DNA of 64,000 nucleotides from Bdellovibrionota bacterium (GTDB taxonomy: Bacteria > Bdellovibrionota > UBA2428). Of this stretch, positions 24,979-53,976 are shown in pieces. The translations under genes were made by a program, and so were the position numbers. Within the stretch, counting starts at the first letter, position 1, and every line of letters starts with the position of its first letter. The stretch spans positions 139,895 to 203,894 of the forward strand of contig JBIKUK010000003.1 of the NCBI GenBank assembly GCA_044347615.1. Direction: 5' to 3'. A model generated the notes under the pieces. It was not told the DNA's origin, made no database searches, and worked only from the letters and a program-made list of their open reading frames with translations.

Positions 24979-25054
24979 TTATAGTTTTTCGACCACCAAC
25001 ATAAAAAACCTTAAGATTAAAAAGTTAAATTTTTATTAACTTAAGATTAAAACT

Positions 25055-26803
25055 TTATTTACTTGCAGGCTCAAGCTTGATTGAGTCCTTAAGCATTTTT
25101 GACCTTTTGTTTTTAGCTTCTTTGCCTTTCTCTCTTGTTTGAGAAAAAGTGACAACACCTCTCCTCACAAGACCTATACCTCCTTTAAATGGCCCCTCAA
25201 CGTTTTCTCTCAAATTCGAAGGTATAACCATGCCCGCTACACCCGCCACAATACTCTTCGCAACACAAGAACGATAATTGGCCACAAGCTGAGGCTGCGA
25301 TGATGATTGAGCAAATTGAGACGGACAAAGCACATCTTCCTTAGATGTATTTTTTTTATATTTTTGGTTACTCAACTTGTTAAGTTCTTTTGAGCAATGA
25401 TTATATGCATCTACTCCATTTTTCCCTAGAGTGAACAAATCAAATCCTAAAACAGTTCTGCTTGCGACGGTTGCTTTTTGTGACAAATTTACGGCTGCAT
25501 CCAGAACAGCTGCTCTATTGGCAAAAGTTGAAAGAAAAACCGAATTTTCAATGGCAGAAACTGCGGCTTTACAGTACGAAGCATAAGCACTGATTCCAAT
25601 AGTCGTAAGCGCGAGTGTCGTGCCCAGCACAAAATCCTTAAAAGCTTCACTTTGGTTTTCATTTACTTTTCTAATATTTTGCCGACACTCCACAGCTCCT
25701 AGGTAAGCTTGAACTTGTCCATCTTCAAAAGACAGCTCATCCCCTCTATTAAAGTGCTCAATATTTAGAGGAGGCGTTTTATATAGAAGCTCATCAAAAC
25801 CTGCGCAACCACCCACTCCGCGCATACAATAAACACCCTCTTGATATTCTTTAAACTGCTCGAAGACTTTTACTCTACTTTTTTTGATTTGATTTTTTAT
25901 GGCTTCTAAAAAATTTTGTTTAGAAGGATCAAAAGTTTTTAAAAACTCTTTTCCCTTAAGTGTTGGATAAATTGATTCAAGTGCTTTTACTTTATTTTCA
26001 TTTTCTGCAGCTTTTTTTTCTCTTGCTGAAAATTCTAAAATTTTTTCTCTATGAGGCGTATAACCTGGCCCCATATTCACAACAGATAGAGTATTGGCAG
26101 ACCTCAAATCAGCAATTTCTTTTTTGAGGGTCATATACTGAGGATAAACATCCTGTAATTCTTGCGCTTGTAACGCGAGACCCCCTCTCGGCTCACAAGA
26201 CTTGAGCTTTTTGCAAGCCTGAATGACATAAGGCATTCCTTCACGAGGACACTCTACATCCGGGAGGCCTTTTTTCCCCAAAAGAGAATCAATAGCAGCC
26301 ATACTTTCGAGCGAAGCAACAGAGGCAATCCTGAGACGTGCCATATTAGAATAATACTCAGCCACTAAAAATTTTCTTCCAACTGGATCTTTCACTAAGT
26401 TGATACATCTTTCAGAAATATTTTTTTCGTTATTACCTAAAGCTGTTAGAGGATGTGAAAAAAGTCGATTTGAAAGTTCTGTTGCGTCCGGAGTTTCAAC
26501 TAATTTGGAAAGAGCATTTGTGCAATAATCATCCGAATTACCAATTTTTTTTCCATACCAATTCCTGACATTTACATTTGCATCGCCATCTATTCTTTCA
26601 ATCAAATCAAAAGGACACGAGTCCCAAGTCTTACTTTGGGTTTTTAAATACTCACCCTCTTCTTGAGCAGAAAGCTTGATTCTTAATTCCTGAGAATCTT
26701 CAAAAGTTGGATGAATATTTTTTGCAAAAGCTGACCCTTCCCAAAAAAAGATACTTAAATAAAAAATCCCCGAAAAAAATGGGATTAAAAAATCTAAATG
26801 CAC
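25055..26803 (-). CDS. secreted cysteine-rich protein, paralog A of tandem pair (unknown family)
   Basis: Signal peptide. Conserved blocks AEYYSNMARLRIASVASLESMAAIDSLLG, KLKSCEPRGGLALQAQELQDVYPQY, NGVDAYNHCSKELNKL, VANYRSCVAKSIVAG shared with 23320..24978. Confidence 0.6.
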   Translation of the reverse strand: MHLDFLIPFFSGIFYLSIFFWEGSAFAKNIHPTFEDSQELRIKLSAQEEGEYLKTQSKTWDSCPFDLIERIDGDANVNVRNWYGKKIGNSDDYCTNALSKLVETPDATELSNRLFSHPLTALGNNEKNISERCINLVKDPVGRKFLVAEYYSNMARLRIASVASLESMAAIDSLLGKKGLPDVECPREGMPYVIQACKKLKSCEPRGGLALQAQELQDVYPQYMTLKKEIADLRSANTLSVVNMGPGYTPHREKILEFSAREKKAAENENKVKALESIYPTLKGKEFLKTFDPSKQNFLEAIKNQIKKSRVKVFEQFKEYQEGVYCMRGVGGCAGFDELLYKTPPLNIEHFNRGDELSFEDGQVQAYLGAVECRQNIRKVNENQSEAFKDFVLGTTLALTTIGISAYASYCKAAVSAIENSVFLSTFANRAAVLDAAVNLSQKATVASRTVLGFDLFTLGKNGVDAYNHCSKELNKLSNQKYKKNTSKEDVLCPSQFAQSSSQPQLVANYRSCVAKSIVAGVAGMVIPSNLRENVEGPFKGGIGLVRRGVVTFSQTREKGKEAKNKRSKMLKDSIKLEPASK

Positions 26804-35712: not shown

Positions 35713-36891
35713 TTGAGCTTAACAACTGATCATTCAATTAAAGATCTAACGGCGCATTTTAAAATTTCGATTTTCTCCTCGCAGCATTTCGATTTTTTTA
35801 AAAGTCCTTCTTTTTTAGGTTCTGAATACATTCTTGCTGTTGCCTATGAGGACGTGCCTAAAAATGCTTCGCGTACTCCTCGCTCTTACTTAAATATTTT
35901 TGAAATAAAACCCAATGAGAGAAAAAATGCTCAAGAACTTTCTTCAGAAATTTTAACAAAGCTTTGTGATGAGCTTTTAGAAAAAATGCCTCGTGAGATC
36001 ACCATAACAGCGCTTTTTGACTGTCGCTCAATCTCTAGAAATTCTCTCTCTTACTGGAAATGGCAAGACAGAAAAGCTTTGCTCTTAACAGGAAAATATC
36101 CGCCCCTTATCGAACGCTCTCAAGAATGTGCGCAAAATTTTTTACTTCTCAAACAAAAAGAACGAAGCTTTCTGGCTCCTGATATCAACTGGCAAGAAGT
36201 CGATCCCTCAAAACACACCTCATGCCTTGAGCGTAAAGCTCTTAGAAATTTCTACGACCTCACACATCCCGAACTTGAATCAATCGTCAAAGAAATCGAT
36301 CGTAAGAAAAAAATTCTTGTTCATGTATGCTGTGGGCCCGATGCTGCGGGCGTCATTGAACAACTCCAAGAAGAATTTGAAGTTCTTTGTTTTTGGTATG
36401 ACCCTAACATTCAACCCAAAGAAGAATACGATCTTAGACTTCAAGCTTTTGAAAAAGTTGCAGAATTAAAAAACACAAAAGCCATCATCGGCGAGTACGA
36501 CGTTGAAAACTTTTTTGAAAACATCAAAGGATTAGAACATACGCCTGAACAAGGCGCTAAATGCTCTGTTTGCTACGATATGCGCCTTGAACGATCTGCT
36601 CTCGAAGCGAAAAAACAAAACTGTGATTTATTCACCACCACTCTCGCTATTTCTCCTCACAAGGTTCAGCAAAAACTAAAAGCTTTTGGAGAAGTTGCCG
36701 CAAAAAGGCACGGCGTTCCCTACCTTGCGCGCAACTTTATGAAGCACGAAGGATTCAAAGAAAGCGTGAAGTTCACCATCGAAAACGATATCTACAGACA
36801 AGATTACTGTGGATGCCTCTACTCACTCCACGAAGGCGGCCCCAAAGCTCGCCAAATGGCTGATCAATTAGAATTTGAGAAAAAAATTTAA
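35713..36891 (+). CDS. queH: epoxyqueuosine reductase QueH (DUF208) with ~190-aa N-terminal extension of unknown function
   Basis: C-terminal 200 aa: KKILVHVCCGPDAAGV, CSVCYDMRLE, YRQDYCGC match the QueH cysteine motifs. N-terminal half has no recognisable motif; a true start further downstream is possible. Confidence 0.65.
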   Translation: MSLTTDHSIKDLTAHFKISIFSSQHFDFFKSPSFLGSEYILAVAYEDVPKNASRTPRSYLNIFEIKPNERKNAQELSSEILTKLCDELLEKMPREITITALFDCRSISRNSLSYWKWQDRKALLLTGKYPPLIERSQECAQNFLLLKQKERSFLAPDINWQEVDPSKHTSCLERKALRNFYDLTHPELESIVKEIDRKKKILVHVCCGPDAAGVIEQLQEEFEVLCFWYDPNIQPKEEYDLRLQAFEKVAELKNTKAIIGEYDVENFFENIKGLEHTPEQGAKCSVCYDMRLERSALEAKKQNCDLFTTTLAISPHKVQQKLKAFGEVAAKRHGVPYLARNFMKHEGFKESVKFTIENDIYRQDYCGCLYSLHEGGPKARQMADQLEFEKKI

Positions 36892-40519: not shown

Positions 40520-41926
40520 ATGAAGCGATTTATTTTTAACTTTTTAAAAGTTTTTTTTCTTTCGGGCTCCTTTTTATTTTCATTTACGTCCTTTTCACAA
40601 AATCTTGAAATTCCACTTCCCGCAAACGCCTATGAAGCAGAGCTCAGCGCAGATCAATTGGAAAAACAATTTATAGAAAGTGCTGTCTCCCACAATATTT
40701 CAAATCCCAAAGAAAACGCTACGCTTCTCTTTTTGTACGCAGGCGAAAGAGTTCCACAAAATATCCGCTGGCTCGCTTCTGTTCTGACTAAGAGAGGTGT
40801 TTGGGTAAAATTCGAAAGAGATCGCTCCAACGAAGAAGGCCTTGAGCTTGTTGAAAATCTCGAAAAATCACAAGACAAATGGCTAGATCCCTTTCTTGCT
40901 AAAGTGAGCGAAAAAGAAACTCAAATCGCTCACGATCGAAATTTTTCGGAAAAAATCAAATACGCGCTTAATGTTTCAAACGCTGAGTTAAAAAAATTTT
41001 TTGGCCTCAGGCAAGGCCTTCGCTTTTACCTTGTACAAAAAGCTTTTACCAATCATAAAACAGGCTTTCGCCAACCCCTGAGTCGCATGGTTCACGACTT
41101 AGCCTGGCAATCTCCCCTGGTTGTTTTTTCTACTTTCAGCGCGATTTATTCGGTCATGAAAAATATCATGCCCATAAGTCCTGATTTTTTTAACTGGACT
41201 CACTACCAATTATTTTTTTCGATGCGTGAACAAATCCACGCAAGCGGAGACGTTCTTCCTCTTGATCCTCTTTATTTTGGAATGGCTGCCGCTATGGTGC
41301 GCACCTTTTGGGGAGTTTTTGATCGAGCAGCGGATGCCGAGCTTAAGCTAGGAAAAAAATACAACCCTTATAAAAATCGTCTCGAAACACCCTACGCATG
41401 GCAAGTGGCTTCTCAGTTCATGCTTTCGTTTGTAGGAGACCTTTACATCCTTGTTTTTGGTCATGTAACTTCTATGGTTTATAGCGGTCAAGCCTTGAGC
41501 GGCCCTTTTGGGGTAGTGGAAATGCTTGGAGAAGTCCCTCACGTCATGCTCAATTCCATGACCGGAGCTTTTGCCAAGAAACTACCGAAATCCATTATTT
41601 TTCACTACGTAAGAAAAGGAACTCTCGCCCAAAAAGGACAGGCCATTTCCAACGCTGTTTTTGGCTATTTCTACTCTGTCCTCAAGATTGCAAACTTACT
41701 TCACGCCGGCGTGCTGGCAGATAGTATTTACTACGGTCTGGGAATCTCCGGCCTTGCCTATGAAATCTACCGTCTGGCAGACAATTATCGAATCTCTCAA
41801 GAGACCAAAACAATCGCTCAAGCACTTAGAAAAAAGTGGGAACAAAGCAAGAAAATCACTCAAACCGGGGGTGAAAAACAAAGCTGCCGTATTTTTCTCT
41901 CAAAGAGCCCGCACTTGAAAATGTAA
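40520..41926 (+). CDS. hypothetical secreted/membrane protein (468 aa) immediately upstream of AAA+/M41 protease gene
   Basis: Signal peptide MKRFIFNFLKVFFLSGSFLFSFTSFS. Several hydrophobic segments in C-terminal half. No domain recognised. Confidence 0.5.
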   Translation: MKRFIFNFLKVFFLSGSFLFSFTSFSQNLEIPLPANAYEAELSADQLEKQFIESAVSHNISNPKENATLLFLYAGERVPQNIRWLASVLTKRGVWVKFERDRSNEEGLELVENLEKSQDKWLDPFLAKVSEKETQIAHDRNFSEKIKYALNVSNAELKKFFGLRQGLRFYLVQKAFTNHKTGFRQPLSRMVHDLAWQSPLVVFSTFSAIYSVMKNIMPISPDFFNWTHYQLFFSMREQIHASGDVLPLDPLYFGMAAAMVRTFWGVFDRAADAELKLGKKYNPYKNRLETPYAWQVASQFMLSFVGDLYILVFGHVTSMVYSGQALSGPFGVVEMLGEVPHVMLNSMTGAFAKKLPKSIIFHYVRKGTLAQKGQAISNAVFGYFYSVLKIANLLHAGVLADSIYYGLGISGLAYEIYRLADNYRISQETKTIAQALRKKWEQSKKITQTGGEKQSCRIFLSKSPHLKM

Positions 41927-42007: not shown

Positions 42008-45000
42008 ATGTACTTTATGGCATATCAACGAGGGTGGAAAAAATGCTTCTTAACTTTGATACTTCTTTTGGGCTTTGGCGCAGCGACATCAAGTTTCGCG
42101 GCCAAAGAAGATTACTTCAGTGACCATCCAGCAATTGAACAAGAGCTAAAGGCAAAACTTGTCGTTTCTTTTGTGAAATTGAAAGAAATCTGCCTGAAGG
42201 CAATGGATCCTCAAGTAGATTATCTAACCGAGGAAGAAGTCTTCAAGGCACAAGAATACCTCACTCGAATCAAACAATACAAATTTGAATTCCTTGCTCA
42301 CCTCGTTAAAGATCACGCCTATTCTTTGCGAAAATATTTTCCCGATCTTTATCAGATTAAAAAAACGCCCGCTAAAAGCAGATTCTTTTTTCGCTACACG
42401 ACTCTTCTGACTTTTTACTACAGCGCTCTTGCAGAATTAGGAATTGCTCAAGACGTTCCTTTTATCGAAGCAGAAGCCGACGAGTTCGTTCACCTACAAA
42501 AGCATTTCAAGACGAAGCACGCTTTTGTTCACGATGATAGCAAGAAAGCTTACGACTCCCTTCTCAACAAATTGCATTACGCTATTCGAATTTCAGAAAA
42601 CAAAACAAATAAAGCTCGATACATAACTGAAATTTCAGATCCTGATCATCCTGATTTCATGCCTATCTCAAAAGCTCAAAACTTTTTAGAAGCAACTGGA
42701 GATAGCAGACTTGCAAAAGTAGATGCTCTCAACCCCGATCACTTCTCTCCTCAACAGATCGAAATTTTTCGCGCTGCTATTCAAGGCAATGCAATCGGAC
42801 AACAAGATGCCGAAGATGCTTTTGCTCGAATGGAAACAAAACGTCTCCTAGGTGCTACCGACGGCAAGCCTCAAAAGGTATGGCTCATGGGCCCCACTGC
42901 TACAGGTAAAGATGCCTATACTCACGCCTTTGCTTCTGCCATCAATATTGGCAAAAGTGCCAGTGAAGCAGATCATGTCTTTGAATTACCCGTTGTCCAC
43001 AATGAAGGTGATTTGAGTACAATCACGGGCTCATCTACTGGATACGTTGGATCAAATGCACAATCGCGCTTCGTTCACTTTCTCGTAAATCACTCGGGTG
43101 GCAAATATCACATCGACTTAGACGATACAGGAAAAGAAATCGTCTTGGATGGTCCTCACCCCGAACACGAGGGAGCTACCTTTAAGCCAAGTCAGGCAGT
43201 TGTTTTTATCAACAAAATTGACCAATGGTCTTCTGAGTTCATTGATAAAATTTTGATTGATCTTGTTTCAAAAGGAAAAATGGTTATCCGAGCGCCTGGA
43301 CAAGATGGTCTTGCTGAAATTCAAGTGCCCGTAAATATCGTCGTAGCTTCTCAACACGGAAGTGAAATCATTTTTCCTGACGACCGTGAAGGAAAAGAAG
43401 TGACTCTCAAACAAGCTCTCTTGAACTACGATACAGCCCGCAAAGACAAGTCTAAGCTACGTAACGCCATCGAAAGAAGAGGCGCCCTAAGGCTTGATCG
43501 ACCAGACGAAAGACCTCGAAGTGTTCCGTCTGATTTCACAAACCTTTTTTCAAACGAAGAGCTTGTTCTCTTTAAGCCTCATGATGAAGAAATTTTAAAA
43601 GAAATCACCCGTAGAAAAATTCAGGCAAAAATTAAAACCTATCAGGGAATTCAAAAATACTTGGGGCAAGCAAACTTTGAAATCCTCCCAGAAACGGTAG
43701 CCTATATTTCAAAGTTTAAACGTAAACTCATCGATGGAGCGAAAGGAATAGATTCGATCATTGATGATTTTATCGAAAAGCCAATCCTTACGGCTCTTCA
43801 AAATGGTGAGCTCAAAGATGAAGGTCCAACGGGAAGAACTTATGTCCTCGGAATTGTAGAGGACAAAGAAAGCCACATTGTTCTTCAAATAAAAACTCGT
43901 GATCCCAAAAACGAGGGAGCCTTCCTCGAAGATCAGACAAAAAACATTTACGTCAGAACAGTCGAAACGCCTCCAGACCTATTCAGTGAAGCTGAAAAAG
44001 TAAAATTTGAAAATTTTGAAAAGAATTTTTCAAAACATATTTTCGGCTTTCAAGAACTAGGAAAGCAATTCTCAAAAGCACTTTATCTAAGCGAAGCTCT
44101 AAGCCGAAGAAGTAGCATTGGAAAAGCAAGACGCTTTATGGAATTGGGTCTTTCTGCAACAGGAAAAACTCAAACTGCAAAAGAAGTGAATCGCTTTTAC
44201 TACGGAGAAGATGCTCAACTTGAAATGATCGACTTCAACAACGTTAACCATAAACAAGACGTTCAAGACTTACTCTACGGTCGAAGAGGCGAAGGCCCCA
44301 GTCCGTTCATGAAAGCTTACGATAAAAATAACGGAAAAGTTTTGATCCTCCTGGACGAAATCGCCAACGTCAGAGACATCAACGCTCTCGTCCCTCTTTA
44401 CCAATTGCTAGACGAAGCAAAGGTAACTGGATTTAACGATAACGTTCCTCGTTTAATGGAAAACGTTACTTTCATTCTCACAGGTAACGCTACGGAAGAA
44501 ATCTATCGAGTGATTATGAGAAGCATCCCTGAAGAAATTCAGCGCCAGGCTCAAATCGATATCTACAAAAGATTCAATAACGACCCTCAATACAAGAGAG
44601 CCGTTTTAGAATCGCACTTTCGCCAAGCATTCCTTAACCGATTTCCACCCGAAAATATCGTTATCTTCCCGCCCTTGAGCCACGAAGCTTTGCGCGAACT
44701 TGTGCACTCAAAGATTGGAATTTTTGAAAAAGGAATCACCGAAAACCTCAAGTCCAGAAAGATCGAACTCCAATTTGAAAGCCCTGAAAATTTTGAAAAA
44801 TTTGTAGAAGCTATCGAATGGGCAGCTTTTGATGTGTGGGTACAAGGTCGCTCCATTGAAGCTTTCGTGAACGAAACTCTTGATGCAGACATTCTTGTTG
44901 CCTTGAAAAGCCTTCATCTTAAAGACGGAGAGCCCGTAATTTTGAAATTTATCGAAACAAGAGAAACCGACACTCACGACTCAAAACGTCGCGATATTAT

Positions 45001-46000
45001 TCTAGCTCTTGAACATGCTGGGGAGTCTCAAACCATTCAAGTTCAAGGAAAGAAAGTTCTTTCGCGAGTCAGTGACACAAAAGTAGCGCGCTTGATTACC
45101 GGCGCTCACGAAGCTGGACACGAGATTGCCAGAAGAGCTCTTTCTCGTGAATTCACTAAATCTAAAAAAGTCAGTATCATTCCTGGAGTTGCAGAAATTG
45201 CAGGGGAATACATTTATTACGCTGGAGTTGCTTCCTGGGAAGAAATCGCTAAAACATGCGGCACTCGAAATGACATGCTCGCTCAAATGGCAGAACTCAT
45301 TGCGGGTGGCGAAGCTGGTCGTATGGTAACAGTCGGAAATGTTTCAGAACATGGCCAAAGTAACGACTTGGAACGTACGAACGCTATTGCTGAAATCATG
45401 ATCCTCAAATGGGGTCTTGAAGGCAGCTGGGGCTTTGAAGGTCCAGGGCGTGGAGAAACGGTTAACCAATACTTAAATCGACTCTCACCTGAGCAACGAC
45501 GTAAACTTGAACTTGCTAAAGCAAATGTAATTCAAGAAGCGACAGATATAGCTCAAGAGGTTTTAAAAGATAACCGAGAAACTCTCTTTGCCTTTGGTCG
45601 CGAAGTCACTCGCTTAGGAGAAGTTGACTCTGCGGCGATTGAGAAATTTTTCTCAGAGCACGAAGTTGCAGATTACTGGAGTAAACCCAAAAAAGGCCGC
45701 GTGGCTCAAGCTTTCAAAAAAGTTTTTGATTGGACTAAAAAACTTCGTGAAGCAAAAGCCCCCAGTACTCGAACTCCTATTCTTGTAAAAGAATTTGTAG
45801 CAGATGTCGAAAAAGCAGAAGTTGCTAAGATCGAGGATATTCTTTCTGAAAGAAAAGCAGCAGAAATTGCTCACATCAAAGTCCCCTCGCATCTTAAGTA
45901 TAAGAGCCAGCAAGAAAGCAACTCTAAGACCTCTTGGGCGCTTGCAGTTGTGCCTCAAACACAAATTTCTGCAAATTGCTTAACCTTGTTGCGAAGATAA
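42008..46000 (+). CDS. 1330-aa signal-peptide protein with two tandem ClpA/B-D2-type (AAA_2) ATPase modules and a C-terminal FtsH-like M41 zinc metalloprotease domain
   Basis: Module 1 resembles Clp D2: GPTATGKD (Walker A with D instead of S/T), TGYVGSNAQSRF (cf. ClpB GAPPGYVGYEEGG), VVFINKIDQW (Walker B DE replaced by NK). Module 2 aligns residue-for-residue with ClpB D2: GLSATGKTQTAKEV...MIDFNNVNHKQDVQDLLYG...VLILLDEIANV...LLDEAKVTG...NVTFILTGN. C-terminus RLITGAHEAGHEIARRAL...KVSIIPGVAEIAGEY...GQSNDLERTNAIAEIMILKWGL matches FtsH M41 (HEAGHA...KVTIIPRG...GASND...A..MV..WG). N-terminal hydrophobic signal CFLTLILLLGFGAATSSFAA. Confidence 0.8.
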   Translation: MYFMAYQRGWKKCFLTLILLLGFGAATSSFAAKEDYFSDHPAIEQELKAKLVVSFVKLKEICLKAMDPQVDYLTEEEVFKAQEYLTRIKQYKFEFLAHLVKDHAYSLRKYFPDLYQIKKTPAKSRFFFRYTTLLTFYYSALAELGIAQDVPFIEAEADEFVHLQKHFKTKHAFVHDDSKKAYDSLLNKLHYAIRISENKTNKARYITEISDPDHPDFMPISKAQNFLEATGDSRLAKVDALNPDHFSPQQIEIFRAAIQGNAIGQQDAEDAFARMETKRLLGATDGKPQKVWLMGPTATGKDAYTHAFASAINIGKSASEADHVFELPVVHNEGDLSTITGSSTGYVGSNAQSRFVHFLVNHSGGKYHIDLDDTGKEIVLDGPHPEHEGATFKPSQAVVFINKIDQWSSEFIDKILIDLVSKGKMVIRAPGQDGLAEIQVPVNIVVASQHGSEIIFPDDREGKEVTLKQALLNYDTARKDKSKLRNAIERRGALRLDRPDERPRSVPSDFTNLFSNEELVLFKPHDEEILKEITRRKIQAKIKTYQGIQKYLGQANFEILPETVAYISKFKRKLIDGAKGIDSIIDDFIEKPILTALQNGELKDEGPTGRTYVLGIVEDKESHIVLQIKTRDPKNEGAFLEDQTKNIYVRTVETPPDLFSEAEKVKFENFEKNFSKHIFGFQELGKQFSKALYLSEALSRRSSIGKARRFMELGLSATGKTQTAKEVNRFYYGEDAQLEMIDFNNVNHKQDVQDLLYGRRGEGPSPFMKAYDKNNGKVLILLDEIANVRDINALVPLYQLLDEAKVTGFNDNVPRLMENVTFILTGNATEEIYRVIMRSIPEEIQRQAQIDIYKRFNNDPQYKRAVLESHFRQAFLNRFPPENIVIFPPLSHEALRELVHSKIGIFEKGITENLKSRKIELQFESPENFEKFVEAIEWAAFDVWVQGRSIEAFVNETLDADILVALKSLHLKDGEPVILKFIETRETDTHDSKRRDIILALEHAGESQTIQVQGKKVLSRVSDTKVARLITGAHEAGHEIARRALSREFTKSKKVSIIPGVAEIAGEYIYYAGVASWEEIAKTCGTRNDMLAQMAELIAGGEAGRMVTVGNVSEHGQSNDLERTNAIAEIMILKWGLEGSWGFEGPGRGETVNQYLNRLSPEQRRKLELAKANVIQEATDIAQEVLKDNRETLFAFGREVTRLGEVDSAAIEKFFSEHEVADYWSKPKKGRVAQAFKKVFDWTKKLREAKAPSTRTPILVKEFVADVEKAEVAKIEDILSERKAAEIAHIKVPSHLKYKSQQESNSKTSWALAVVPQTQISANCLTLLRR

Positions 46001-47597: not shown

Positions 47598-48073
47598 ACA
47601 AGCTCTGCGGCTCCAAAAAAGAGAATTCCATAAAAGGCATCGCCTAAAAGAGCGTTTCTCAAAAAAGGAATTCCGGCCACTAAACAAGCTATATAGCCTT
47701 GCATCGTTTGAGGATAGAAATTTCCCTGAAAGAAAAACGCTGTATTTGTAAAAAAGAAAAAGAATAAAGAAGCCGGAATTAAAAATAAAAGCTTTTGTAA
47801 ATAAGAGAGTTTTTTCATGACGAAAAAACCAACCACAGAGACAAGCATAAAAGCCACGTAAACTGCCCACATGTAGGGATAAAAGCCTAAAATGCAATCA
47901 CTTAAAAAAAGAGCTGCTAAGGGAATACAAAAAGATTCCGTTGCTTTCTTCAAGTAAGAAACACCTAGGAGAGATAAGACTGTAAGAGATGTAAAGTTGT
48001 CCGGATGAGGAACCAGACGACTAAAGGCAGCTAAAAATACTAGAGTTATTAAAATCCAAGGATATTTTTTCAT
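47558..48073 (-). CDS. small polytopic membrane protein (171 aa), last gene of metH operon
   Basis: 5-6 hydrophobic helices. Start overlaps metH stop (ATGA). No family recognised. Convergent 40-bp overlap with arnT-like gene end. Confidence 0.5.
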   Translation of the reverse strand: MKKYPWILITLVFLAAFSRLVPHPDNFTSLTVLSLLGVSYLKKATESFCIPLAALFLSDCILGFYPYMWAVYVAFMLVSVVGFFVMKKLSYLQKLLFLIPASLFFFFFTNTAFFFQGNFYPQTMQGYIACLVAGIPFLRNALLGDAFYGILFFGAAELVYRERLIKSAYFS

Positions 48074-50595
48074 TTTCCTATTCCCATTTCTTTTAGCAAT
48101 ACAATAACTCGCTCAACTTCAGAGACAACCGTTCCGACGTCAGTGGAAAACCCATCAGCTGATATTTCTTTTGCAAAATCAGGAGTCACAACAGCTCCTC
48201 CAATTAAAACCTTAAAAGGAAGCTTACGCTCTTTGACAGCATCAATCACCACTTTCATTTGCATCATCGTTGTGGTCATCAAAGCTGAAAGAGCAACAAC
48301 TTGTGCTTTTTCCTTGATCGCTGTTTCGATAATCAATTCAGACTCAACGTTTCGACCTAAATCGATCACATTAAAACCAAAATTTCTAAGCATCAGGATA
48401 CATATGTTTTTTCCGATATCATGAATATCGCCTTTGACAGTGGCAAAAACAACAGTTCCCTTATCGCTTCCAGCTGAGCTTGCCGCACGAGCCTTGACCA
48501 GTAAGGGCTCAAGTACACCAACCCCCGCTTTCATGGCATCTGCTGCTGCAATAAGATGAGGAATAAACTTCACTCGAGCCCCAAAGAGATTTCCCAAATG
48601 CCTAATTGCGGGAGTCATCACTTCAAGAAACAAATTCATGGCATCCGCTGGACGTTCTTCAATAAATTGCTGAGTACATTTCACGGTTCGATCTTTTTGT
48701 CCTTCAACAATAGAACGAAAAATATCTTTTTCTAAATCGGAAACCTTTTCTAAAAAGTCAGGCTCTTTGTTGGGGTTATCTTTTGCCGATGGAGCTGCCG
48801 AACCCGCAGCCCCCGCCGCTCCTCCATGGCCTGCTCCACCCACAGCGAGATCAATTTTATCAGCAAAGTTTTCAATAAAACCCTGAACCGAATCAGCCTT
48901 AGGCCCCCACATATTCGCGGCACCTGCGAGAGCTTTGCCCATTTGATCTGTAACAGACATGATAGCTGAATCCAAACCATGCTGAACCGCACTTGATAAA
49001 AACGCATTATGAACAAATGTTCTATTCGGCAGACCAAAACTTACATTACTCAACCCCAAAGTTGTCGCTGCTCCAGGAAAATATTCTTTAATGAGCGCAA
49101 TTGTTTTTAAGCTTTGCTTAGAACCGTCTTGCATGGCTGAAACAACCAAACCTAAACAATCAAAAACAATATCTTCTTCTTTGAAATTATGTTTTTCAAA
49201 AAGTATTTTGGTTATTTTTTGAGCATTTTTTAAGCGGTCCTCTGCTCGAACAGGAACATCAACACCCGTGCACATACAAACCACTGCAGCACCGTGTTTT
49301 TTCATAATAGGAATGGCTTCGTCTAGCTTTTCATCTTCTGCGTTGAGACTATTAAGCAGAGGTCTTCCATAATAAACACTGGCTCCCGTATCGAGAGCAA
49401 AGCTATTGGCACTATCGATCATCAAAGGAACTGAATATTTATTTTGCACAGCCACAACAGCTGTTTTCATAAGAGCAGGTTCATCGACAAGAGGGACGCC
49501 CACGTTCAAATCTAACAATTTCCCACCCGCTTTTGTTTGTGCCTCCGCATCGGCAAGCAACAATTCAAGATCACCCTTCTTGAGGGATTCACTTAATTTT
49601 TTTCTTCCAGAGGGATTCATCTTTTCGCCAATCGGAACAAAAGGATGATTTCCCCCAAGCAAGACATAGGAAGAAAGACTCGACACAAGAACACGTGAGG
49701 CTTTTGAAGGATCTTTACGAAGAGAACTAAGCTGTGAAGATTTTTCTTTTACAAGGCGAATAAACTCAGGCGTTGTTCCGCAACATCCTCCGATGATATG
49801 TGCGCCCGCTTCGATAAATCTCTGCACATAAGGCTCAAGATCTTTTGCGCTCATTGGAAATTGAGTGCGACCTTCTTTAATTTTAGGCAATCCCGCATTG
49901 GGCTGAACGCTGATGTACAAAGGACTTACGCGAGACATCTTTTCGACAATTTTCACCATGGGCTCAGGTCCTGTTGAGCAGTTCACTCCTACTGCATCCG
50001 CGTGAAACCCTTCTGCAATGGCTGCAATATTTTCAGGAGTCGCACCTGTATCAGTTATTGCATCCGTATTAAACGTGGCATGTGCAACAAGAGGAATTGA
50101 AGAAGAAGCACTTCTCACGGCCGAGAGAGCCGCGCGAAATTCAATGCTATCAAACATTGTTTCGACAACAATTAAATCAACACCAATTTTAACAAGCGCA
50201 ACGGCTTGCTCGTAAAAGATTTCACAAACTTCATCAAAAGATTTTTGTCCTGTTGGATAGACCGTTTCTCCAGAGGGTCCAATATCACCTGCGACAAAAC
50301 ATCGCCCAGCACCGGCTTTGCGTGCAACTTCAACGGCTTTGGCATTGATCTCATACAAACGTTTATCGGATTGATACTCTGCCAAGCGCCACTTGCTGGC
50401 ACCAAAAGTATTGGTGAGAAGTATATCTGCTCCCGCATCTGCATATTCTTTTTGAGCTTTAAAAATAACTTCCGAATTATCCATCATCCAAACATCAGGG
50501 GCCATCCCTGCTGGTAGACCTCTGTTTTGAAGCAAAGCTCCCATGGAACCATCCAAGACAAGTATTCTTTTTTTGAGTTCGCTTCTAAAATCCAT
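48070..50595 (-). CDS. metH: cobalamin-dependent methionine synthase lacking the C-terminal AdoMet reactivation domain
   Basis: N-terminal homocysteine-binding domain (ILVLDGSMGALLQNRG). Pterin-binding domain. C-terminal B12-binding domain with DxHxxG (GDIHDIGKNI). Ends at 841 aa versus ~1227 for E. coli MetH. Confidence 0.85.
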   Translation of the reverse strand: MDFRSELKKRILVLDGSMGALLQNRGLPAGMAPDVWMMDNSEVIFKAQKEYADAGADILLTNTFGASKWRLAEYQSDKRLYEINAKAVEVARKAGAGRCFVAGDIGPSGETVYPTGQKSFDEVCEIFYEQAVALVKIGVDLIVVETMFDSIEFRAALSAVRSASSSIPLVAHATFNTDAITDTGATPENIAAIAEGFHADAVGVNCSTGPEPMVKIVEKMSRVSPLYISVQPNAGLPKIKEGRTQFPMSAKDLEPYVQRFIEAGAHIIGGCCGTTPEFIRLVKEKSSQLSSLRKDPSKASRVLVSSLSSYVLLGGNHPFVPIGEKMNPSGRKKLSESLKKGDLELLLADAEAQTKAGGKLLDLNVGVPLVDEPALMKTAVVAVQNKYSVPLMIDSANSFALDTGASVYYGRPLLNSLNAEDEKLDEAIPIMKKHGAAVVCMCTGVDVPVRAEDRLKNAQKITKILFEKHNFKEEDIVFDCLGLVVSAMQDGSKQSLKTIALIKEYFPGAATTLGLSNVSFGLPNRTFVHNAFLSSAVQHGLDSAIMSVTDQMGKALAGAANMWGPKADSVQGFIENFADKIDLAVGGAGHGGAAGAAGSAAPSAKDNPNKEPDFLEKVSDLEKDIFRSIVEGQKDRTVKCTQQFIEERPADAMNLFLEVMTPAIRHLGNLFGARVKFIPHLIAAADAMKAGVGVLEPLLVKARAASSAGSDKGTVVFATVKGDIHDIGKNICILMLRNFGFNVIDLGRNVESELIIETAIKEKAQVVALSALMTTTMMQMKVVIDAVKERKLPFKVLIGGAVVTPDFAKEISADGFSTDVGTVVSEVERVIVLLKEMGIGK

Positions 50596-50617
50596 ATGTC
50601 TTACCTCTCAATTTAAC

Positions 50618-52102
50618 TTAAAAATTTAAATTTCTAACAAAAGCATCTTGAAAATCATCTTGTAGCGCAAGCTCTAAAGGCTTTAATTTTTTTAAAAGTT
50701 CAGCACAGTACTTTTCTTGCTCATCAAGACTTGAAATCGCATACAAGAGAGTTCCCTTGAGCGAACTATTTCCAATCGTTTCAAAAGGAATTTCCTCAGG
50801 TAAAAGCCCAATACCTCTCACCGCTTCTTCTTTGAGGTGCTCAGCAAAAGTACCTGCAAGATAAATCTTTTTTGGACGAACTCCGGCTCGATCAATCAAA
50901 AGGTCACAAGCCGTTCGAGTTGCCGATTTAGCCAATTGAAATTCACGAACATCATCTGCAACAAGGTAGATTTCATCATTCAACATCAACTTGCCATCTG
51001 GAAGATAACCGTCGCTCTGAAGTAATTCCCCTTTAACAGCTTCATAGAGTATATCCATCAAACCCGAACCACAAATTCCACGAGGCTTATCTTGACCAAT
51101 TGTTTCCAAATCCCACTGAGAGTTTTTATAAACAGCATGACTAATAGCGCCAGCCTCAGCTCGCATACCTTGGACAATATTTCCACCTTCAAAAGCAGGC
51201 CCGGCAGGAGCACTCGAAAAATAAAACTCCCCTTTCCCGTTTGCGAGGACAATTTCTGTATTTGTTCCAATATCCACAAGCATCCAAGGCTCTTGAGCTT
51301 GAAGCTTTTCAATATAAAAAAGTCCTGCAAAAGTATCTGCACCTACAAAGCCTCCCAAAAGAGGAAGCGATTTAAACTTTATGTTTAGTTTGTCAGAAAA
51401 AGACTCAAAAGCCTCTCTGTAAAGAGGTTGAAAAGGAAAAACCGCAAGACTTGAAATATCCCAATTGTGTAAAAAACTAAGAATCGCGGAATTACCTGAG
51501 CAAAAAAGTCCCTTTTCCTTGGCCTTACCAAACAACTCAGGGCGAAGCTTTTCGATTTCTTTTAAACATGGTCCAAGCGACTCCAGAATCTTTTCATGAA
51601 GTAAAGAGACTCCCCGATCTTGAGCAACTTTTAACCGAGTCATGACATCCGCACCAAAACGAACCTGTTTATTGAGCAAATGAGTTTCTACTAAAACATT
51701 GCCATTCTCATCTGCAAGAGCCACGACAACACCAGTGGACCCAAGATCACAGACAAGCACAGGACTCACGCAAGAAGAATGTTCGCTTTTGACGATCACT
51801 CGAGGCTTTGCATTTAGATTTTCAACATCAGGCACTAAACAACTTAGATTTGTTCTCGGATGAGCTTGGCAAGAAAGCCTCCACCCCGCAGCTAATTCAG
51901 ATTCTGAAAAAGCTTTTCTATCAGCAGCTGTGATCGCTACAAAACCTTCTTTAATTTTGACTCGACACTTTGTACAACTTCCCGCACCTCCGCACGCTGC
52001 ATTCACAGGAATTCCCGCATCTTGTAAAAAATGCAGAAGCTTATGACCAACATTAACTTGAAGTTCAAAATTCTCAGATCGAGATTCAACTTTTATTTTC
52101 AT
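50618..52102 (-). CDS. RACo-like protein: N-terminal plant-type [2Fe-2S] ferredoxin domain + ASKHA-fold ATPase domain (DUF4445; reductive activator of corrinoid proteins family)
   Basis: CGGAGSCTKCRVKI (C-x4-C-x2-C ferredoxin motif). ASKHA phosphate motifs LVCDLGSTGVVVAL and DIGTNTEIVLA. Confidence 0.7.
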   Translation of the reverse strand: MKIKVESRSENFELQVNVGHKLLHFLQDAGIPVNAACGGAGSCTKCRVKIKEGFVAITAADRKAFSESELAAGWRLSCQAHPRTNLSCLVPDVENLNAKPRVIVKSEHSSCVSPVLVCDLGSTGVVVALADENGNVLVETHLLNKQVRFGADVMTRLKVAQDRGVSLLHEKILESLGPCLKEIEKLRPELFGKAKEKGLFCSGNSAILSFLHNWDISSLAVFPFQPLYREAFESFSDKLNIKFKSLPLLGGFVGADTFAGLFYIEKLQAQEPWMLVDIGTNTEIVLANGKGEFYFSSAPAGPAFEGGNIVQGMRAEAGAISHAVYKNSQWDLETIGQDKPRGICGSGLMDILYEAVKGELLQSDGYLPDGKLMLNDEIYLVADDVREFQLAKSATRTACDLLIDRAGVRPKKIYLAGTFAEHLKEEAVRGIGLLPEEIPFETIGNSSLKGTLLYAISSLDEQEKYCAELLKKLKPLELALQDDFQDAFVRNLNF

Positions 52103-52119
52103 TATTTTTTAAATAATTT

Positions 52120-53976
52120 TCATTTCCTAAAAAGCTTTATAAGCTCCAAAGCAACTTCTACTTTACCCAAAGGAGCATTCACACAAAAGCCCTCGCAAGA
52201 ATTTTCTAATTTCTTCATGGTTTTGAGGGCAAGATCTATTCCTCGCTTTATAGCTTCTTCTTTGTTATCTTTTGTTTTTTCCATTTCTTGCAAAATAGAT
52301 TCAGGAACCTTCACACCAGGAACCTCATGTGCAAGAAACTCTGCATTTGCGTAACTGATAAAGGGCCAAATACCAACAAGATGTGGTCGACTATCCGCTG
52401 AGATATTTTCCCGCCAGCGCATATAAGACTCAGGATCAAAGATGGGTTGTGTCACCGCAAAATCAGCTCCTGATTCACATTTGTATTTCCAGCGTTGTAT
52501 TTCGAGCTCAATATTAATTGCTGTTGGATTAGAAGCCACCCCAATACCAAAATTAGTGGGCTTGCCCAAATTTTCGCCCTTAGGACTTATTCCTTTGTTG
52601 AGAGAATTCATCATGTAGGTCAAACCAATTGCATCAACATCATAAACCGAAGTTGCCTCGCGATTATTTCCAAGCTTAGGAGGATCACCTGTTACAACAA
52701 GTACATCATAAACAGAATTCACATAAGCGCCCAAAAGATCCGACTGAAGCGCAATCAAGTTACGATCACGCGTTGTAAAATGTGGCAAAGCTTTTAAGTT
52801 AAACCTTGGATCTCTGTTTACAAGAGAAGCCACATGCATGGAGCTAATACGAGTACTTGCACGAGGACCATCGGGAACGTTTACAAAATCAATTTTATTT
52901 TGATCGATTAATTCCAATTGCTGAAGAAACTTCTCAACATCAGGTCCCTTGGGCGGAAGAACTTCAATCGAAAAGATCTTTCTTCCTTCTCTTAACTTCT
53001 GACCCATGTACGATTCTTTGCGTTCGATTAAAGGTCTTTGAGTAACTTGGATTTTTTGAGAATCTTTTTTTTCAGCACTCTGATCGCGCACAACAACGAC
53101 ACGCTTTGAATTGAGCATTCGAACTGCATTTCGGATGGCACGAATGTGATCAGGACCCGTTCCGCAACATCCCCCCACACCTGCAGCTCCAGCCTCAACA
53201 AAATTCTTCGCATATTTTGCCATATAGTCAGGGCTTGTCATATAAAAATAACGCCCGTTGAGCTGATTAGGAATGCCCGCATTTGGCTGAACGATAATCG
53301 GTTTAGTTATTGACGGAGCAATCTTTTTAAGTGTTTTATATAAATCACTCGGCCCCTGACCACAATTAAGGCCTACAGCCTGTATGTCCTCACGATGAGA
53401 AATTCTATCTATGAAATTTTGAATCAAATTCTCTTGATGACTGATAGGCGCAAAAGAAGCCAGAATCGGAGTTTTTGAATCCACACTTCGAACACCTTCT
53501 ATGGCGTCTTCTAATTCCGAAATATTTGTAAAGGTTTCTAAAATATAAAGATCAAAGTTTCCGTGTTTCAAAGCGGCAGCTGCAATTTCTGCAAAATAAG
53601 ACCGCGCCTCTTGTCGGCTGGTAGGCCCCAGCGGCTCAATTAAGACTCCCGTAGGTCCAATAGAAAAAGCAATTTTTACGTCTGTTCCCTTACGAGCCTT
53701 GTTGGCTATTTCAAGAGCAGCTTTTATGAGTTCCCCTTGCTTATCTTCGATATCAAACTTTTTCAGCTGAGGGCGACTAATCGAAAACGTATTGGTTGTA
53801 ATAACATTTGCACCTGCTTTGATATAAGCCTCATGGACGGCAAGAACATCTCCAGGGGCACTTAGATTAAGTTCCTCGAAAGGTCGATTGATAAAAAAAC
53901 CCTTCCCATAGAGCTCTGTTCCAATTCCGCCATCAAAAACAATTATTCCATTGTCAAACACTCTCTTATGATTCAT
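52120..53976 (-). CDS. bifunctional homocysteine S-methyltransferase / 5,10-methylenetetrahydrofolate reductase (YitJ-like)
   Basis: N-terminal IVFDGGIGTELYGKG...VITTNTF Hcy-methyltransferase domain. C-terminal MTHFR-like domain. 618 aa as in B. subtilis YitJ. Confidence 0.8.
   Translation of the reverse strand: MNHKRVFDNGIIVFDGGIGTELYGKGFFINRPFEELNLSAPGDVLAVHEAYIKAGANVITTNTFSISRPQLKKFDIEDKQGELIKAALEIANKARKGTDVKIAFSIGPTGVLIEPLGPTSRQEARSYFAEIAAAALKHGNFDLYILETFTNISELEDAIEGVRSVDSKTPILASFAPISHQENLIQNFIDRISHREDIQAVGLNCGQGPSDLYKTLKKIAPSITKPIIVQPNAGIPNQLNGRYFYMTSPDYMAKYAKNFVEAGAAGVGGCCGTGPDHIRAIRNAVRMLNSKRVVVVRDQSAEKKDSQKIQVTQRPLIERKESYMGQKLREGRKIFSIEVLPPKGPDVEKFLQQLELIDQNKIDFVNVPDGPRASTRISSMHVASLVNRDPRFNLKALPHFTTRDRNLIALQSDLLGAYVNSVYDVLVVTGDPPKLGNNREATSVYDVDAIGLTYMMNSLNKGISPKGENLGKPTNFGIGVASNPTAINIELEIQRWKYKCESGADFAVTQPIFDPESYMRWRENISADSRPHLVGIWPFISYANAEFLAHEVPGVKVPESILQEMEKTKDNKEEAIKRGIDLALKTMKKLENSCEGFCVNAPLGKVEVALELIKLFRK

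What the first reader, a model, noticed from the sequence alone, without database searches (positions are those of the whole stretch)
42008..46000. Giant exported chimeric AAA+ protease: tandem Clp-D2-type ATPase modules (first one catalytically degenerate) fused to an FtsH-like M41 peptidase
The second ATPase module is co-linear with the ClpB/ClpA D2 domain over ~120 residues, with intact Walker A and Walker B. The first module keeps the Clp-D2 GYVG-region but has Walker A GKD and Walker B NK instead of DE, so it is predicted to be ATPase-dead. The C-terminal 200 aa are clearly an M41 (FtsH-type) HEAGH zinc protease. FtsH normally pairs M41 with a classical AAA module and two TM helices. Here M41 is welded to Clp-type modules behind a cleavable-looking signal peptide. 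I do not recognise this architecture as a described family. An ATP-dependent machine placed behind a Sec signal is itself puzzling: it could be an inner-membrane-anchored protease facing the cytoplasm after an N-in anchor, or a genuinely periplasmic protein.
Basis: partly seen in the sequence, partly recalled or inferred. Interest (0 to 1): 0.85.

Follow-up and report, generated by a model that had tools for sequence, protein, structure and literature searches.

The report
Exported double-Clp ATPase fused to FtsH-type protease
This gene encodes a 1330-residue enzyme that joins two ClpB-type ATP motors to an FtsH-type zinc protease behind a secretion signal; it belongs to an undescribed family of about 100 sequence clusters seen so far only in predatory Bdellovibrionota, and it raises the question of where an exported ATP-driven machine gets its ATP.

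Summary
Window 42008-46000 (+) is one intact 1330-aa ORF under strong purifying selection. It contains:
- a Sec-type signal peptide;
- a variable helical N-domain;
- two Clp/Hsp100 D2-type AAA+ modules;
- an M41 (FtsH-type) HEAGH zinc protease;
- a 130-aa tail with an invariant Cys.

Module 2 has every ATPase residue intact. Module 1 in this protein lacks the catalytic Glu, the Arg finger and the sensor-2 Arg, but keeps the GYVG pore loop.

New here: this is not a one-off. An exhaustive HMM search finds about 105 co-linear representative clusters. Every named one is from Bdellovibrionota, annotated only as "AAA family ATPase", "hypothetical" or auto-"ClpA".

Across 91 full-length members:
- HExxH and the module-2 Arg finger are present in 91/91, and module-2 GK[TS] in 90/91;
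- 77/91 have signal-peptide-like N-termini;
- module 1's GKD P-loop is the conserved family norm (75/91), and most members keep module 1's catalytic residues, so the window's clade is a derived, inactivated variant.

No Pfam or NCBIfam family model and no paper describes this architecture.

Best reading: an exported hexameric unfoldase-protease of predatory bacteria, working where prey ATP is available. Export and the ATP source are inferred, not shown.

The parts
42008..46000 (+). Whole gene, 1330 codons plus stop
   Evidence: ORF list. Family HMM matches it end to end, 1169 bits, and it is the only copy in the window. dN/dS is 0.023 vs L002 and 0.044 vs L003.
42008..42100 (+). Predicted Sec signal peptide (res 1-31; n-region R8/K11/K12, hydrophobic core FLTLILLLGFGAA, c-region TSSFA with cleavage predicted after A31). 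The real start may be M4.
   Evidence: Only segment with 19-residue hydropathy above 1.6. Conserved in relatives. Heuristic census finds 77/91 family members with the same kind of N-terminus, and 7/7 complete metagenome loci. SignalP could not be run.
42101..42757 (+). N-terminal helical domain (res 32-250), variable across the family, no known domain
   Evidence: No Pfam hit here or in seven other members' N-regions. Length before module 1 varies from 90 to 590 aa. The only model covering it has low confidence.
42758..43972 (+). AAA+ module 1 (res 251-655), Clp/Hsp100 D2-type, a pseudo-ATPase in this protein
   Evidence: Profile vs PDB ClpB D2, E 2e-5. hhalign vs ClpB D2 99.9%, E 3.8e-31, and vs module 2 99.3%. 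AF2 model is confident. dN/dS 0.015.
42890..42913 (+). Module 1 P-loop GPTATGKD (res 295-302), Asp in place of the Walker A Thr/Ser
   Evidence: Direct reading. GKD occurs in 75/91 family members.
43028..43054 (+). Module 1 pore loop GSSTGYVGS (res 341-349)
   Evidence: Aligns to ClpB D2 GAPPGYVGY. The Tyr position is aromatic (Y/F/H) in 82/91.
43199..43222 (+). Module 1 Walker B position VVFINKID (res 398-405), N402-K403 instead of D-E. The Arg-finger position is L513 and the sensor-2 position is K579.
   Evidence: hhalign register against module 2 LILLDEIA. The family norm is NE/R/R; NK occurs in only 3/91.
43973..44977 (+). AAA+ module 2 (res 656-990), Clp/Hsp100 D2-type, catalytically complete
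44147..44170 (+). Module 2 Walker A GLSATGKT (res 714-721)
   Evidence: GK[TS] in 90/91.
44342..44365 (+). Module 2 Walker B LILLDEIA (res 779-786)
   Evidence: DE in 78/91, EE in 10/91.
44639..44641 (+). Module 2 Arg finger R878 (FLNR)
   Evidence: Aligns to Hsp104 FLNR. R in 91/91.
44849..44851 (+). Module 2 sensor-2 R948 (QGRSI)
   Evidence: R in 19/91, including the window clade; Ala in 66/91.
45086..45595 (+). Peptidase M41 domain (res 1027-1196)
45107..45121 (+). Zinc site HEAGH (res 1034-1038). The third ligand D1120 lies at 45365-45367 in SNDLER.
   Evidence: Aligned to HEAGH and NDIER of T. maritima FtsH. HExxH in 91/91 and Asp in 90/91.
45596..45997 (+). C-terminal extension (res 1197-1330) ending in the invariant Cys motif C1324-LTLL (Cys codon 45977-45979)
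   Evidence: Cys in 87/91, always 4-25 residues from the end, in the motif C-x-x-[LAF]-[LF]. The linker before it is predicted disordered.

Best explanation
The gene encodes a member of an undescribed, apparently Bdellovibrionota-specific family of AAA+ proteases. Shown: a signal-peptide-like N-terminus, a variable N-domain, two Clp/Hsp100 D2-type AAA+ modules in tandem, an M41 zinc-protease domain with a complete active site, and a tail with an invariant Cys. Inferred from what is established for Clp/Hsp100, FtsH and Lon: the protein forms a hexamer in which ring 1, ring 2 and the M41 ring stack, and substrates are unfolded, threaded through the axial channel and cut in the M41 chamber. In this particular protein only ring 2 can hydrolyse ATP (Walker A/B, sensor 1, Arg finger and sensor 2 are all intact). 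Ring 1 has lost the catalytic Glu, the Arg finger and sensor-2, but it keeps the GYVG pore loop and is under equally strong purifying selection. It therefore probably acts as a passive substrate-gripping or scaffold ring. Inferred from the N-terminus: the protein is exported by Sec, so it works outside the predator's cytoplasm. Most speculative step: it is fuelled by prey-derived ATP, either reaching the predator's periplasm or the bdelloplast, or after delivery into the prey, and it serves to digest folded prey proteins.
Against: No dedicated signal-peptide or topology predictor could be run, so export rests on heuristics. The bacterial periplasm is generally held to lack ATP (established knowledge). 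No route across the outer membrane or into prey is indicated, and there is no conserved neighbouring gene. 14/91 members show no signal peptide, possibly because of mis-called starts. Hexamer formation and ring stacking were not modelled. Module 2 has no canonical aromatic pore loop: I-[L/F/Y]-G, with Leu in 50/91. Predatory lifestyle is inferred from taxonomy of MAGs, not shown for this organism. Only 5 of 30 representative clusters looked up carried an organism name.
Confidence: 0.5

Rival explanations
1. The N-terminal segment is an uncleaved signal anchor. The enzyme stays tethered to the predator's inner membrane facing its own periplasm, like mitochondrial i-AAA/Yme1 facing the intermembrane space. 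There it performs envelope protein quality control or remodelling during intraperiplasmic growth, using ATP that diffuses in through outer-membrane porins from the prey.
For: It has the same N-in/C-out orientation signals as the main explanation. M41 proteases are normally membrane-tethered. There is a precedent of outward-facing FtsH predictions.
Against: Hydrophobic runs are short (median 14 uncharged residues) and are followed by AxA-like sites in 64/77. That pattern is typical of cleaved signals rather than anchors. It shares the ATP-supply problem.
Confidence: 0.2
2. The bulk of the protein is cytoplasmic. The N-terminal hydrophobic segment is an N-out anchor or a peripheral membrane helix, and the protein is a cytoplasm-facing FtsH-like quality-control or regulatory protease with Clp-type motors.
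For: This would remove the ATP paradox. All known bacterial AAA+ proteases work in the cytoplasm (established knowledge). 14/91 members lack a detectable signal.
Against: 71/77 have net-positive residues before the hydrophobic run, and 61/77 have acidic or neutral residues after it. The positive-inside rule therefore puts the N-terminus inside and the body outside. The hydrophobic cores are too short for a stable reverse anchor. There is no second TM segment.
Confidence: 0.15
3. The protein is exported but ATP-independent. The AAA+ rings serve only as an oligomerisation scaffold or holdase for an extracytoplasmic zinc protease.
For: Module 1 in this clade shows that a ring can lose catalysis and still be retained under selection. 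Module 2 sensor-2 is Ala in 66/91.
Against: Module 2's Walker A Lys, Walker B Glu, sensor-1 Asn and Arg finger are invariant or nearly so across sequences only 22-30% identical. That is hard to explain without selection for hydrolysis.
Confidence: 0.1
4. The ORF is an assembly or annotation artefact that fuses separate Clp-like and FtsH-like genes.
For: None found.
Against: The same co-linear architecture appears in about 105 representative clusters from independent metagenomes and MAGs, including a 3.3-Mb contig. Four genome loci and ten metagenome loci carry it. There are no frame breaks, and purifying selection acts on all domains.
Confidence: 0.01

Closest known systems
FtsH (M41 AAA protease; TIGR01241)
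   Different: The motor is of the Clp/Hsp100 D2 (AAA_2) type, not classic AAA (PF00004 is below threshold). There are two motors instead of one. There is no two-TM anchor with a periplasmic domain; a signal peptide takes its place. There is an extra C-terminal tail with an invariant Cys. TIGR01241 scores 45.6 against a cut-off of 600.
Class I Clp/Hsp100 unfoldases (ClpB, Hsp104, ClpA, ClpC)
   Same: Two AAA+ modules lie in tandem. They show D2-type hallmarks: the IGQ helix, the GYVG pore loop, FLNR Arg finger, GAR-type sensor-2 and the D2-small lid. Foldseek aligns both modules to D1+D2 protomers.
   Different: Both modules are D2-like: hhalign to D2 gives E 1e-31 and 1e-37, while D1 matches only at the P-loop region. 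There is no Clp_N or middle domain. The protease is fused rather than recruited (ClpP). Module 1 carries a ~40-aa HSGGRY insertion and a GKD P-loop. The protein is predicted to be exported.
Mitochondrial i-AAA (Yme1) and phytoplasma FtsH copies predicted to face outward
   Same: These are AAA proteases whose catalytic domains are placed in a compartment other than the producer's cytoplasm or matrix, where ATP comes from elsewhere (PMC6981957).
   Different: They are canonical single-ring, membrane-anchored FtsH-type enzymes. The outward orientation in phytoplasma is itself only predicted.
Plasmodium HSP101 (PTEX) and Torsins
   Different: They are eukaryotic, have no protease domain, and work in compartments with an established ATP supply.
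Lon (LonA/LonB)
   Different: Lon has a serine-lysine S16 protease, a single ATPase ring, and is cytoplasmic.

Membership tests
FtsH / M41 AAA protease | Peptidase M41 domain with HEXXH and an Asp third zinc ligand | tested here: met
   Pfam 48.1 bits against a cut-off of 29.9. HEAGH and NDLER align to T. maritima FtsH. Conserved in 91/91 and 90/91.
FtsH / M41 AAA protease | Single classic AAA module (PF00004) with second region of homology | tested here: not met
   PF00004 scores 17.2 bits, below the cut-off of 21.2; the best model is AAA_2. TIGR01241 scores 45.6 against 600 and covers only the protease part.
FtsH / M41 AAA protease | Two N-terminal TM helices flanking a periplasmic domain, with the catalytic part in the cytoplasm | tested here: not met
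   There is only one hydrophobic segment, residues ~13-31, and its charge distribution predicts N-in/C-out.
Clp/Hsp100 class I (ClpA/ClpB/ClpC) | D2-type AAA_2 module with a D2-small lid | tested here: met
   Module 2: Pfam AAA_2 36.4 bits against a cut-off of 27. Both modules match ClpB D2 at hhalign Prob 99.9%. The module-1 lid matches ClpB D2-small with i-E 6e-11.
Clp/Hsp100 class I (ClpA/ClpB/ClpC) | D1 module of the classic type plus a Clp_N domain, and equivalog-level similarity | tested here: not met
   There is no Clp_N or PF00004 hit. D1 similarity is limited to 54-71 columns around the P-loop. TIGR03346, TIGR02639 and TIGR03345 score 42-44 bits against cut-offs of 885-1232.
Catalytically active AAA+ module (module 2) | Walker A GK[TS], Walker B DE, sensor-1 Asn, Arg finger and sensor-2 Arg | tested here: met
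   K720-T721, D783-E784, N827, R878 and R948, by alignment to Hsp104/ClpB. Enzymatic activity was not tested.
Catalytically active AAA+ module (module 1) | Walker A GK[TS], Walker B DE, Arg finger and sensor-2 Arg | tested here: not met
   The window has K301-D302, N402-K403, L513 and K579. In 65/91 family members the set is KD / xE / R / R.
Sec-exported protein with a cleavable type I signal peptide | Positive n-region, 7-15-residue hydrophobic core, small residues at -3/-1, and no lipobox or twin-Arg motif | tested here: inconclusive
   The sequence features fit: R8/K11/K12, a 13-residue core and S-F-A|A. They recur in 77/91 members. This was only a home-made heuristic; SignalP/DeepTMHMM and experiment were not available.
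Hexameric stacked-ring AAA+ protease | Six-fold ring assembly with inter-subunit Arg fingers and an axial channel leading to the protease chamber | not testable with these tools

The most novel reading that the evidence does not exclude
A whole family of catalytically intact, two-ring AAA+ unfoldase-proteases is secreted by predatory Bdellovibrionota. It operates outside the cell that makes it, in the predator's periplasm, the bdelloplast or the prey cytoplasm, and runs on the prey's ATP to dismantle folded prey proteins. A family-specific GKD/NE nucleotide site in ring 1 and an invariant C-terminal Cys (a possible zinc 'cysteine switch' keeping the protease latent until delivery) would be adaptations to that life.
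Probability: 0.4. Interest if true: 0.9.

Novelty: new variant of a known kind. Interest (0 to 1): 0.72.

Why it matters
AAA+ proteases are textbook cytoplasmic (or organellar) machines, because they need ATP. A conserved family with invariant ATPase and protease sites that also carries secretion signals would be the first candidate for an energy-dependent protease deployed outside a bacterial cell. It would point to a way predators exploit prey ATP. It makes a concrete question testable: where and when is ATP available during predation? It also gives a natural series for studying how double-ring unfoldases divide labour. That series includes ring 1 active, ring 1 dead, a GKD P-loop, and a pore loop in one ring with the ATPase in the other. 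It would also be a new domain architecture for protease classification, since MEROPS M41 has so far been paired with classic AAA.

Tried and rejected
- AF2 on residues 1-655 with only 4 sequences gave pLDDT 43.6 and was discarded. A 46-sequence MSA fixed this for residues 240-1330, so the N-domain remains unmodelled.
- hhalign of module 1 vs module 2 with 4 sequences was inconclusive (Prob 7%). It became decisive with 91 sequences.
- Two profile searches of the word-indexed protein database were unproductive: one was swamped by ClpB, the other returned a single fragment. Taxonomy therefore rests on names of cluster members and four genome loci.
- afdb50 was unavailable.
- Conserved gene neighbourhood: none across ten metagenome loci, the window and the P0003 contig. 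An operon-partner explanation was dropped.
- Defence-system reading: PADLOC gives only generic AAA_2 similarity to DolB, so it was rejected.
- Tat signal: no twin-Arg motif in the window protein, and only sporadic RR in the family, so it was rejected.
- Lipoprotein: no lipobox Cys at +1 in the window protein.
- Sortase, exosortase or MYXO-CTERM-type sorting signal for the C-terminal Cys: rejected, because no hydrophobic helix plus basic tail follows the Cys.
- Strict GKD-with-NE compensatory swap: not strict, since KD also occurs with DE in 4 members.
- Known domains in family N-terminal regions: none.
- Literature searches for the architecture or for exported AAA+ proteins in Bdellovibrio found nothing specific.
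Full report
**1. The observation**

Window 42008..46000 (+) is a single uninterrupted ORF of 1330 codons.
- Pfam finds Peptidase_M41 at residues 1027-1196 (E 1.7e-12, 48.1 bits, cut-off 29.9).
- Pfam finds AAA_2 at residues 710-880 (E 7e-9, 36.4 bits, cut-off 27). Classic AAA (PF00004) stays below threshold.
- NCBIfam gives only partial matches, far below their cut-offs. ClpV/ClpB/ClpA D2 regions score 42-44 bits against cut-offs of 885-1232. The FtsH protease part scores 45.6 bits against 600.
- phmmer against PDB aligns residues 648-939 to Hsp104/ClpB NBD2 (E 9e-13). It aligns the C-terminal part to T. maritima FtsH, with HEAGH, SIIP, GG.A and NDLER in register.

- Module 1: GPTATGKD (295-302), GSSTGYVGS (341-349), VVFINKID (398-405).
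- Module 2: GLSATGKT (714-721), LILLDEIA (779-786), sensor-1 N827, FLNR878, QGR948.
- Protease: HEAGH (1034-1038) and D1120.

One correction: M41 is followed by a further ~130 residues.

**2. Is module 1 really a Clp D2-type module?**

Pfam does not see it in the single sequence. Three other lines of evidence do.
- A 4-sequence profile of residues 1-655 hits ClpB D2 in PDB in two co-linear stretches. One runs from IGQ through Walker A to GYVG, the other covers the D2-small lid (E 2e-5).
- With 91 family members, profile-profile comparison gives the following:

| Comparison | Prob | E-value | Aligned columns |
|---|---|---|---|
| Module 1 vs ClpB D2 | 99.9% | 3.8e-31 | 306 |
| Module 2 vs ClpB D2 | 99.9% | 4.8e-37 | 306 |
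| Module 1 vs module 2 | 99.3% | 2e-20 | 313 |
| Module 1 vs ClpB D1 | 84.2% | 7.3e-6 | 54 |
| Module 2 vs ClpB D1 | 68.3% | 4.7e-5 | 71 |

- An AlphaFold2 model of residues 240-1330 built on a 46-sequence alignment is confident (pLDDT 84.6, pTM 0.61).
  - Foldseek aligns 770-830 columns of it to double-ring ClpC1/ClpB/Hsp104/ClpA protomers (E 1e-17 to 1e-15).

Both modules are therefore D2-type. Module 1 carries a family-specific ~40-residue insertion (FLVxHSGGRY...) between the pore loop and Walker B.

**3. It is a family, not a singleton or an artefact**

The word-indexed database returned only three relatives (96, 88 and 51% identity), all with the same architecture. The exhaustive HMM search of 1.84 billion representatives gave a different picture.
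- It found 113 hits at E<=1e-30.
- About 105 of them match in one co-linear stretch across module 1, module 2 and M41. Most are 1250-1450 aa long.

The gene also occurs in four genome loci and ten metagenome loci with GC from 0.38 to 0.60.

Against close relatives, dN/dS is 0.023 (L002) and 0.044 (L003). Module 1 scores 0.015 (L002) to 0.041 (L003), so it is also strongly constrained. dS is near saturation, so these ratios are approximate.

Mis-assembly is excluded.

**4. Who has it**

All named carriers are Bdellovibrionota.
- Window relatives come from Bdellovibrionota and Bacteriovoracaceae MAGs.
- P0085 is from a Bdellovibrionales bacterium, as is P0010.
- P0015 is from Pseudobdellovibrionaceae/Bdellovibrionales and sits on a 3.3-Mb contig. 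P0077/P0178 are from Bdellovibrionota/Bdellovibrionaceae and include marine samples.

Source names are "AAA family ATPase", "hypothetical protein" or an automatic "ClpA". Only 5 of the 30 representative clusters I looked up carried an organism name, so the restriction to this phylum is provisional.

The window itself is ordinary chromosome. It carries Obg, QueA, the 2-oxoacid dehydrogenase complex, lipoyl synthase and MetH-type genes.

No neighbouring gene is conserved across the family.

**5. Family census (91 full-length members)**

| Feature | Count (of 91) |
|---|---|
| Module 2 GK[TS] | 90 |
| Module 2 Walker B DE | 78 (plus EE in 10) |
| Module 2 sensor-1 Asn | all |
| Module 2 Arg finger | 91 |
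| Module 2 sensor-2 | Ala 66, Arg 19 (including the window clade) |
| HExxH | 91 |
| Zinc-ligand Asp | 90 |
| Module 1 P-loop GKD | 75 |
| Module 1 Walker B NE | 61 |
| Module 1 KD / xE / Arg finger / sensor-2 Arg all together | 65 |

- GKD is thus a conserved variant of the P-loop, not decay.
- The window, P0001 and P0002 have NK, L and K at the module-1 Walker B, Arg-finger and sensor-2 positions. P0003 has KT/EK/M/N.
- The nearest outgroups (P0004-P0010) are intact there. Inactivation of ring 1 is therefore derived in this clade.
- The pore-loop aromatic residue sits in module 1 (G-[Y/F/H]-[VIL]-G-S, 82/91). Module 2 has I-[L/F/Y]-G-x-[RK]-D, with Leu in 50.
- In this protein, the ring that keeps the canonical gripping loop is therefore the ring that cannot hydrolyse ATP.

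**6. The N-terminus**

The only hydrophobic stretch in the protein is residues ~13-31.
- It has a positive n-region (R8, K11, K12) and a 13-residue hydrophobic core.
- It has S-F-A|A at the -3/-1 positions and an acidic mature N-terminus.
- It has no lipobox and no twin-Arg motif.

By a simple heuristic, 77/91 members have such a segment starting within the first 35 residues.
- The median uncharged run is 14 residues.
- 71 have a net-positive n-region.
- 64 have an AxA-like site.

In the seven metagenome loci with a complete 5' end, all show a signal-like segment once alternative start codons are allowed. Some of the 14 'signal-less' members are therefore probably mis-called starts.

The charge distribution argues for N-in/C-out. 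The short cores argue for a cleaved signal rather than an anchor.

I could not run SignalP or DeepTMHMM. Export is therefore well supported by sequence features but not proven.

**7. How it most likely works**

- Shown: the domain order, the intact catalytic sets in module 2 and M41, the dead-but-conserved module 1, the signal-like N-terminus, and the apparent phylum restriction.
- Inferred from established Clp/Hsp100, FtsH and Lon mechanism: hexameric stacked rings, ATP-driven threading by ring 2, ring 1 acting as a passive grip or scaffold, and cleavage in the M41 chamber.
- Inferred from the signal: action outside the producer's cytoplasm.
- Speculative: the ATP comes from the prey.

Three precedents make the speculative step conceivable.
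- Phytoplasma FtsH copies are predicted to face the host (PMC6981957).
- Plasmodium HSP101 and Torsins are signal-bearing Clp-D2 relatives working outside the cytosol (their biology is from my own knowledge).
- Bdellovibrio is reported to transport ATP (Ruby & McCabe 1986, listed as ref b39 in PMC4834554; I did not read the paper itself).

The rivals are a periplasm-facing membrane-tethered form, a cytoplasm-facing form, and an ATP-independent exported form. Each is listed with its own test.

**8. Comparison and novelty**

It works like a Clp/Hsp100 double-ring unfoldase feeding an FtsH-type protease.
- It is not a member of FtsH. It has no classic AAA module and no two-TM anchor, and it falls far below the equivalog cut-off.
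- It is not a member of ClpA/B/C. It has no D1-type module and no Clp_N domain, and it falls far below those cut-offs too.

No Pfam or NCBIfam model is specific to it. None of the seven literature searches, nor a review of secreted enzymes of Bdellovibrio and like organisms (BALOs), mentions it.

I rate it a new variant of a known kind (AAA+ protease), with an unusual and potentially important predicted location.

**9. Unexplained**

- The chemistry of the GKD/NE site.
- The invariant C-terminal Cys (87/91), which lies 4-25 residues from the end in C-x-x-[LAF]-[LF], after a disordered linker. It could be a cysteine switch on the zinc, a disulfide partner or a targeting signal.
- The function of the variable N-domain, which has no known domain.
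- The source of ATP.

Noticed in passing
window 45977-45979 (C1324) and the C-termini of family members P0003-P0106: A Cys is invariant in 87/91 family members. It always lies 4-25 residues from the C-terminus in the motif C-x-x-[LAF]-[LF], after a predicted disordered linker and a conserved 'P..VADI..I ... V.LP..LP' stretch. No hydrophobic helix follows it, so it is not a sortase-type sorting signal. A zinc 'cysteine switch', a disulfide or a targeting motif are all possible.
   Followed up: partly
window 42890-42913 and 43199-43222 (module 1 P-loop and Walker B): The family norm in module 1 is GKD (75/91), paired mostly with NE at Walker B (61/91). The catalytic Glu, Arg finger and sensor-2 are retained in 65/91. 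This is a conserved non-canonical nucleotide site whose chemistry is unknown. The window clade is a further-degenerated derivative.
   Followed up: partly
window 40520-41926 (+): A 468-aa protein with a signal-like N-terminus and a hydrophobic C-terminal half has no Pfam or PADLOC hit. It sits 81 bp upstream of the target on the same strand and is syntenic in the close relatives L002 and L003. It is absent next to the 51%-identical P0003 and in other family loci.
   Followed up: partly
window 48070-53976 (-): Methionine-synthase functions are split and re-fused: S-methyl_trans + Pterin_bind + B12-binding (841 aa), a RACo-like reductive activator with a 2Fe-2S domain (494 aa), and an S-methyl_trans + MTHFR fusion (618 aa).
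   Followed up: no
window 23320-26803 (-): Two large adjacent ORFs (552 and 582 aa) have no Pfam hit at E<=1e-5. They lie in the lowest-GC part of the window (0.36-0.37).
   Followed up: no
window 35713-36891 (+): The QueH (epoxyqueuosine reductase) domain occupies only residues 201-373 of a 392-aa ORF. The N-terminal 200 residues are unassigned.
   Followed up: no
L006 3596-4129, L009 181-735, L011 4677-5213: A ~180-aa ORF upstream of the family gene is shared by three metagenome loci. L006 and L011 are otherwise syntenic. It is not found in the window or the other loci and was not characterised.
   Followed up: no
L004 8001-8303 (contig JBILWH010000015.1) vs L001 (JBILWH010000174.1): The same MAG holds a full copy of the gene on a 4-kb contig. 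It also holds the first 101 codons (97% identity) at the end of another contig. This is probably assembly fragmentation or strain mixture rather than a paralogue.
   Followed up: no
window 42008-42019: Two in-frame ATGs (M1 and M4) are present. Database relatives P0001 and P0002 are called from M4, and an AAGAGA purine run lies 9 nt upstream of the second ATG, so the true start may be M4. This does not affect the signal-peptide reading.
   Followed up: partly
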